DNA of 64,000 bases from contig OX597820.1 of NCBI GenBank assembly GCA_951406725.2, positions 33,170,001 to 33,234,000 on the forward strand. Direction: 5' to 3'. A program made the translations under genes and the position numbers. This stretch comes from Octopus vulgaris (taxonomy: Eukaryota). Shown here piece by piece: positions 44,914 through 45,372 of this stretch. The notes beneath the pieces were generated by a model, which was not told the origin of the DNA, made no database searches, and saw only the letters and a list, made by a program, of their open reading frames with translations. How positions within the stretch are numbered: position 1 is the first letter of the stretch; the number at the start of each line of letters is the position of its first letter.

Positions 44914-45372
44914 TACTACTAATATAGGATGAAGTTAACTTCATCCTATATTAGTAGTAGACTTATTACTACTCGCTATAGGGACTGGTAACCACTATAA
45001 CCTGTAGTGGGGAACAGTCAACACGTTGTACTGAGGCTGACCATAGAATTTTTATTTTTAGATATAACTGGGGTACTTAAATGTACACATGTTTTTTGCT
45101 TCGGCTTTTTCCATGGGCGCATGTAAGTATCTTATTTATATCCTTTCGTAAGCTCTACTGAGGAGGAATAAGTCTTTTATGAGATTAATTCCGAAATTGA
45201 TTCAATATAGAGATAACGAATTTTTAAAAATTCTAACGGCCGGCTTGCCCGACTTCAGTTCTTCGGTTTTTGCTGTAGCGAGTAAATTATATGTGGAAAT
45301 TGACGATTTAATAGTCTGTTATCAGCATATTGGCTTTGAAATAATTTTCTTTAGCCTTTACTTATAAGTTGT
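44914..45372 (+). mobile_element. (TA)n-embedded hammerhead-carrying element with 46-bp perfect palindrome at its left end
   Basis: Palindrome at 44914-44959; hammerhead at 45153-45212; (TA)n on both sides. Confidence 0.7.
45153..45212 (+). ncRNA. Type-I hammerhead ribozyme
   Basis: CTCTA-CTGAGGA-GGAAT...ATTCC-GAAA-TTGA-T-TCAA-TA-TAGAG: all core nucleotides canonical, three stems, ATA triplet. Confidence 0.8.

What the first reader, a model, noticed from the sequence alone, without database searches (positions are those of the whole stretch)
44914..45372. Canonical hammerhead element capped by a perfect 46-bp palindrome
Seen: TACTACTAATATAGGATGAAGTTAACTTCATCCTATATTAGTAGTA (44914-44959) is a perfect loopless palindrome at the junction with (TA)n, about 200 bp upstream of a fully canonical hammerhead (45153-45212). 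Known: Penelope insertions often have inverted 5' ends. Inference: the palindrome is a footprint of cDNA snap-back or self-primed second-strand synthesis during insertion.
Basis: partly seen in the sequence, partly recalled or inferred. Interest (0 to 1): 0.7.

Follow-up and report, generated by a model that had tools for sequence, protein, structure and literature searches.

The report
Twin-primed Penelope-type retrozyme insertion junction
The 46-base palindrome is the head-to-head joint of a small ribozyme-carrying jumping element that sits in TA repeats at hundreds of places in this genome, likely made when two DNA copies of one RNA were started from the two cut strands rather than by one copy folding back; the locus is ordinary, but its sister copies help test how this class of element inserts.

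Summary
The palindrome and a complete type I hammerhead core are real. They belong to a non-coding, ~510-bp tandem-monomer family (Penelope-type retrozyme) with two fixed 3' ends in (TA)n, 'a' and 'b', 92 nt apart. The left arm is not a random fold-back: it is the family's b end plus (TA)n on the minus strand (141 exact genomic copies). Of 100 b ends, 59 have a head-to-head partner, 50 of them ending at a. Both arms share subfamily alleles. Their inner ends coincide more often than chance (10 vs 1.5), but in 31 of 50 each arm holds sequence the other lacks. The adjacent autonomous Penelope-like family repeats the pattern (48 of 60). Loopless palindromes up to 156 and 484 bp occur in sister copies. 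Best reading (0.7): two target-primed cDNAs from one template, joined end to end; snap-back, the published reading, is less likely. Raw-read confirmation was not obtained. The scan reached the same reading earlier in other genomes. Known kind of element; modest interest.

The parts
44876..44915 (.). (TA)20 target tract, left; it is the tail of a short interspersed repeat
   Evidence: family D19
44914..44936 (-). b arm, 23 nt: the family's downstream 3' terminus (site b) read on the minus strand into (TA)n
44914..44959 (.). 46-bp loopless palindrome; centre 44936/44937 is the head-to-head joint
44937..45375 (+). a arm, about 439 nt of the ~510-bp monomer, ending at site a in (TA)n; non-coding (longest stop-to-stop frame 71 aa)
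45153..45212 (+). type I hammerhead; stem I extends to 45145-45220 through a 3x3 loop; cut predicted after 45207
45374..45555 (.). TA-rich target tract, right
45556..47505 (-). separate insertion: 5'-truncated copy of an autonomous Penelope-like family (899-aa ORF in intact copies), ending at its own b site; used as replicate

Best explanation
The palindrome is the head-to-head joint between two pieces of a non-coding hammerhead retro-element, likely formed when a Penelope-type enzyme supplied in trans cut a (TA)n tract on both strands and primed two cDNAs on one template, one from each of two fixed start sites, which were then joined at their 3' ends. Shown: the two fixed termini (a, b), their pairing in opposite orientation, (TA)n on both outer ends, shared alleles between arms, and coupled inner ends. 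Inferred: that a and b are RT start sites (as shown in vitro for an anole Penelope element), that one RNA served both cDNAs, and that the ends were joined by template jumping or end-joining. Here the a cDNA ran 439 nt and the b cDNA 23 nt, and both stopped at the same monomer position, at an A-tract, so the joint is a perfect palindrome. Either both ran off one RNA end or both stalled at that A-tract in successive monomers; I cannot separate these two. The hammerhead rides along: its cut site does not mark copy ends.
For: b+(TA)3 occurs 141 times against 46 read-through copies; the better TA microhomology is used in 15 against 332. Of 100 b ends, 59 have an inverted partner >=18 nt; 50 of 59 end at a, and 48 of those 50 run into TA. 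Arms disagree at 11% of diagnostic sites against 48% for random pairs. Inner ends within 3 nt: 10 of 50 against 1.5 shuffled. In 31 of 50 neither arm contains the other, 18 of them by more than 30 nt, and 9 of 50 b arms are shorter than the 92-nt tail. Replicate in the autonomous neighbour family: 50 of 60 inverted, 48 of 50 at its a site, all 48 with TA; within 4 nt 6 vs 0.69; arms 0.7% vs 1.9% apart; 14 of 48 b arms shorter than the tail; non-nested copies with 0 mismatches over 576-616 nt. Zero-loop joints recur. PMC11167929 (parts 1-2 read): both strands cut and extended, two start sites bracketing the tail, predicted dimer.
Against: At this locus the b arm is nested in the a arm (1 of 50), so fold-back is formally possible. 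Shared alleles and coinciding inner ends fit snap-back equally well. Non-nested arms could come from one-sided deletion of originally perfect palindromes. The overall excess of longer a arms is what the margins give (32 vs 31.2 shuffled). The 'a arm runs 4-30 nt further' excess (13 vs 4.0) has no clear counterpart in the replicate (6 negative vs 4 positive within 40 nt). Junction microhomology was not clearly enriched (24% vs 15%). The A-tract stop is weak and post hoc (6 of 45 vs 2.3, p=0.03). The tail is 92 nt, longer than the 30-40 nt in the papers. No autonomous partner was found. One sister joint (L057) contains a short local fold-back.
Confidence: 0.7

Rival explanations
1. Snap-back or self-priming: one target-primed cDNA folds back and copies itself; the other target strand then joins at a preferred site. 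Asymmetric sister copies arise later by one-sided deletion of unstable palindromes.
For: Published interpretation (PMC3846280, passages seen). Arms share one template. Excess of coinciding inner ends. This locus is nested. Local fold-back at L057.
Against: It needs a zero-loop hairpin and a stop exactly at site b after 23 nt, bypassing a better TA match. Most sister copies are non-nested, including young ones with identical arms. Small offsets go mostly the wrong way for a b-primed fold-back (13 negative vs 4 positive). Site a is a frequent terminus among copies sampled without regard to b (15 of 30, several of them the partner arm of a b end).
Confidence: 0.15
2. Hybrid: two cDNAs are primed, but the a cDNA snaps back over a 0-25-nt loop and then switches onto the b cDNA, which supplies the tail.
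For: It would explain the cluster of small negative offsets (13 vs 4.0; 15 vs 2 in the refined table) and the templated inserts at some joints.
Against: It does not explain zero-loop joints without natural symmetry (this locus, L195), and the cluster is not clear in the replicate.
Confidence: 0.1
3. Two independent insertions into the same TA tract, or an assembly or library chimera.
For: TA tracts here take repeated insertions (the neighbour element). No read-level confirmation was obtained.
Against: Arms share alleles and inner ends are coupled. A chimera would not be expected to end at site b plus (TA)n, and the architecture recurs in about 98 examined insertions of two families.
Confidence: 0.05

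Closest known systems
Endonuclease-positive Penelope-like element insertions (PMC8557442 passages and section 15; PMC3846280 passages)
   Same: Partial tandems, inverted 5'-truncated copy head-to-head, tail at one end only, palindromes at the inverted joint, (TA)n targeting, hammerhead in the repeat.
   Different: No ORF; tail 92 nt rather than 30-40; target-site duplication cannot be read in (TA)n; the data favour two cDNAs over the self-priming proposed in PMC3846280.
Animal non-LTR retrozymes (bioRxiv 10.64898/2026.07.22.740005, part 1 and passages seen)
   Same: Non-coding tandem monomers, each with a type I hammerhead; some loci hold two consecutive intact units.
   Different: Mostly dispersed, truncated, two-armed insertions with Penelope-type ends rather than long arrays; copy ends do not fall on the ribozyme cut; circular RNA not tested.
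Poseidon element of the green anole in vitro (PMC11167929, parts 1-2 of 4 read)
   Same: Two adjacent start sites that bracket the tail, AT-rich target, both strands extended, ribozyme cut dispensable.
   Different: In the parts read that paper does not assign one site to each arm or treat inverted joints; here the start sites are inferred from genomic ends.
LINE-1 twin priming (recalled, not read)
   Same: Two target strands prime on one RNA, giving an inversion.
   Different: In L1 the second primer anneals at variable internal sites and the arms barely overlap; here both starts are fixed and the arms often overlap.

Membership tests
non-LTR retrozyme | tandem monomers each with a type I hammerhead (>=2 consecutive intact units) | tested here: met
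   period about 510; consecutive intact cores at three distinct loci (L004/L007 are one locus, L020, L085); this locus has one unit
non-LTR retrozyme | no protein-coding capacity | tested here: met
   longest frame inside the element 71 aa stop to stop; no long ORF continuous with the element among 197 loci
non-LTR retrozyme | transcription, self-cleavage, circular RNA | not testable with these tools
   no holder on record as RNA; only contigs available
type I hammerhead | core CUGANGA / GAAA / NUH with three stems | tested here: met
   stem III short; no Rfam hit
type I hammerhead | catalytic activity | not testable with these tools
   hammerhead fold 3.1 kcal/mol above the minimum-energy fold
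autonomous EN+ Penelope-like element | RT plus GIY-YIG ORF | tested here: not met
Penelope-mobilised non-autonomous element | inverted 5'-truncated copy and one-sided tail | tested here: met
   tail 92 nt
Penelope-mobilised non-autonomous element | homology to the pLTR of an autonomous element | tested here: inconclusive
   only one autonomous family compared (8 loci), no significant match
Penelope-mobilised non-autonomous element | target-site duplication | not testable with these tools
   both flanks are (TA)n

The most novel reading that the evidence does not exclude
Penelope-class inverted ends and one-sided tails are one event: an RT dimer starts at two fixed sites on one RNA, one site per target strand, and the trailing cDNA tends to stop at or just behind the leading one before the two are joined. 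This would replace the self-priming explanation, and it holds here for both a coding family and a retrozyme.
Probability: 0.6. Interest if true: 0.55.

Novelty: new member of a known kind. Interest (0 to 1): 0.33.

Why it matters
The locus itself is a routine insertion. The family statistics bear on an open point named in PMC8557442: how Penelope-like elements form their tandem and inverted ends. They give fixed start sites, a rule of one site per arm, and coupled stops, which translate directly into an assay with the existing in vitro system. I did not find this reading in the paper searches (library limited to open papers; supplements not read, bioRxiv supplements closed). The scan's own notes already hold it for other genomes, so this is one more case and not a first sighting.

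Tried and rejected
Rfam: no hammerhead model hit on the element; the window-wide list shown was all microsatellite-driven miRNA matches. Reads: no RNA holder listed; contigs of runs X1-X4 and X7 did not bridge the palindrome centre, and repeats were skipped, so there is no verdict. Hammerhead cut as source of 5' ends: 4 of 262 ends within 3 nt of it, against 38 in the surrounding 81 nt, so no enrichment. Junction microhomology against simulated blunt joints: 12 of 50 vs 15%, inconclusive. Overall sign of the offset: explained by the margins and dropped as evidence. A-to-G bias among private variants shared by both arms: 2 of 8 and 1 of 29, not seen. Structure around the tail: z=0.05. Neighbour element as the partner: no significant DNA similarity. 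Pfam and PDB gave no significant label for its ORF, so its Penelope-like assignment rests on recalled RT and GIY-YIG motifs and on its architecture. Paper searches gave nothing on this family. One search crashed before its statistics; only its printed table is used. One search had too short a reference and is superseded.

Full report
Observation. The 46-mer at 44914-44959 is an exact loopless palindrome whose centre is unique in the 2.8-Gb genome. It sits against (TA)20, 194 nt before a type I hammerhead at 45153-45212 with all core bases. The ribozyme has a short stem III, is not the minimum-energy fold and matches no Rfam model. Its invariant core positions are kept in 93-100 of 100 family segments, with one compensatory pair change.

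The family. A genome search returned 70 matches from 40 scored of 2207 candidates. They are pieces of a ~510-bp monomer that also occurs in partial tandems; three distinct loci hold two consecutive intact hammerheads. The element has no ORF. Copies end at two places followed by (TA)n: site a (the window's right end) and site b, 92 nt further on, in the next monomer. Exact counts: b+(TA)3 141, b read-through 46. At the stronger TA microhomology just before b, 15 copies stop and 332 continue. Of 30 a-region copies sampled in genome order, 15 were scored as ending at a in TA.

What the palindrome is. Its left arm, read on the minus strand, is one of the 141 b+(TA)n ends. The locus therefore reads (TA)n, b arm (23 nt, minus), joint, a arm (about 439 nt, plus), (TA)n. 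I examined 100 of the 141 b ends. Of these, 59 have an inverted partner of at least 18 nt at their 5' end, 13 have a short a-like remnant by a loose pattern, and 28 have none. Fifty of the 59 partners end at site a, and 48 of those run into TA. The nine partners ending elsewhere were left out of the statistics that follow.

Relations between arms. In 32 loci with enough overlap the arms differ by 5.0% against 9.6% between loci, and they disagree at 11% of diagnostic sites against 48% for random pairs, so they share a template. Inner ends coincide within 3 nt (modulo the monomer) in 10 of 50 against 1.5 after shuffling. Yet in 31 of 50 each arm carries sequence the other lacks, 18 by more than 30 nt, and 9 b arms are too short to reach site a. 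A simple fold-back cannot make these without later deletion. Small offsets favour a longer a arm (13 vs 4.0 expected; the opposite sign 4 vs 4.4). The overall skew is only what the margins give. Loopless joints also occur in L139, L161 and L195 (24, 56 and 156 bp), so 46 bp is unremarkable in this family.

Replicate. The neighbour at 45556-47505 belongs to a young coding family (899-aa frames) with no significant DNA similarity to the retrozyme. Its Penelope-like label rests on recalled motifs and on architecture, since Pfam and PDB gave none. It has 626 exact b+(TA)n ends. In the first 60, 50 have an inverted partner and 48 end at its own a site 152-165 nt upstream, all in TA. Inner ends lie within 4 nt in 6 against 0.69, arms differ by 0.7% against 1.9% (33 loci), and 14 b arms are shorter than the tail. 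One joint is a 484-bp perfect palindrome. The small-offset asymmetry is not clear here.

Mechanism. PMC11167929 (parts 1-2 read) shows a Penelope-class protein cutting and extending both strands from two RNA start sites that bracket the tail, without needing ribozyme cleavage. PMC8557442 (passages and section 15) describes inverted copies and one-sided tails as typical and leaves their formation open. PMC3846280 (passages) reads the junction palindromes as self-priming. The data here fit two cDNAs, one per strand and one per start site, on one template, joined end to end (0.7). At this locus both stopped at the same monomer position, at an A-tract that is a weak truncation hot spot (6 of 45 other read-through copies vs 2.3 expected, post hoc); two other b arms stop there too (L042, L050). 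Snap-back remains formally possible here because this is the one nested-in-a case (0.15); a hybrid gets 0.1.

Limits. There was no raw-read check. The sample was selected on an exact 28-mer, so it favours younger copies and excludes b arms under 22 nt. Arm ends come from BLAST against one natural copy and are uncertain by a few bases. Microhomology was inconclusive, the ribozyme cut does not mark ends, and no A-to-G signature was seen. No partner element was identified. No supplements were read; the preprint's species tables (closed) or Repbase may already list this family.

Verdict. I stated the two-cDNA reading before looking at the scan's notes; 22 notes in at least 11 genomes hold the same search words, and the eight shown reach the same reading. 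These are unchecked notes and are not independent evidence.

Noticed in passing
window 45556-47538: 5'-truncated copy of a young autonomous Penelope-like family with many intact 899-908-aa frames; its 5' end carries a 35-nt inverted piece (47504-47538) from just upstream in the ORF, the non-overlapping geometry recalled for L1 inversions. My hammerhead scan found none in its repeat.
   Followed up: partly
window 42728-42985: Short element with terminal inverted repeats flanked by (TAAT)n; looks like a MITE (by eye).
   Followed up: no
window 44536-44668 and 44700-44875: Two short high-copy repeats ending in (TA)n; the second has copies at 4455, 13485, 15944 and 23481, and its tail is the target of this insertion.
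   Followed up: no
window 17050-17898: Tandem array of a 183-bp unit, 4.6 copies, 94% matches.
   Followed up: no
window 5068-5529 and 32955-33416: Two 462-nt copies of a repeat, 93% alike, in opposite orientation.
   Followed up: no
L052:2103-2242, L131:1793-1922, L145:1315-1404, L278:1308-1371: Perfect loopless palindromes of 64-140 bp from other elements in flanking DNA; such joints seem common in this genome.
   Followed up: no
L174 and this locus: Of four insertions with an a arm near or above one monomer, two have inner ends matching within 11 nt modulo the period, hinting that the b cDNA was primed at the upstream b site of the same RNA.
   Followed up: partly
L194: One b arm begins exactly at the predicted hammerhead cut; not enriched overall.
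   Followed up: yes
window 45179-45367: An ATG in hammerhead loop II opens about 61 codons, 28 nt before the cut; the anole element's ORF starts 26 nt before its cut. Possibly a relic ORF start, possibly chance.
   Followed up: no
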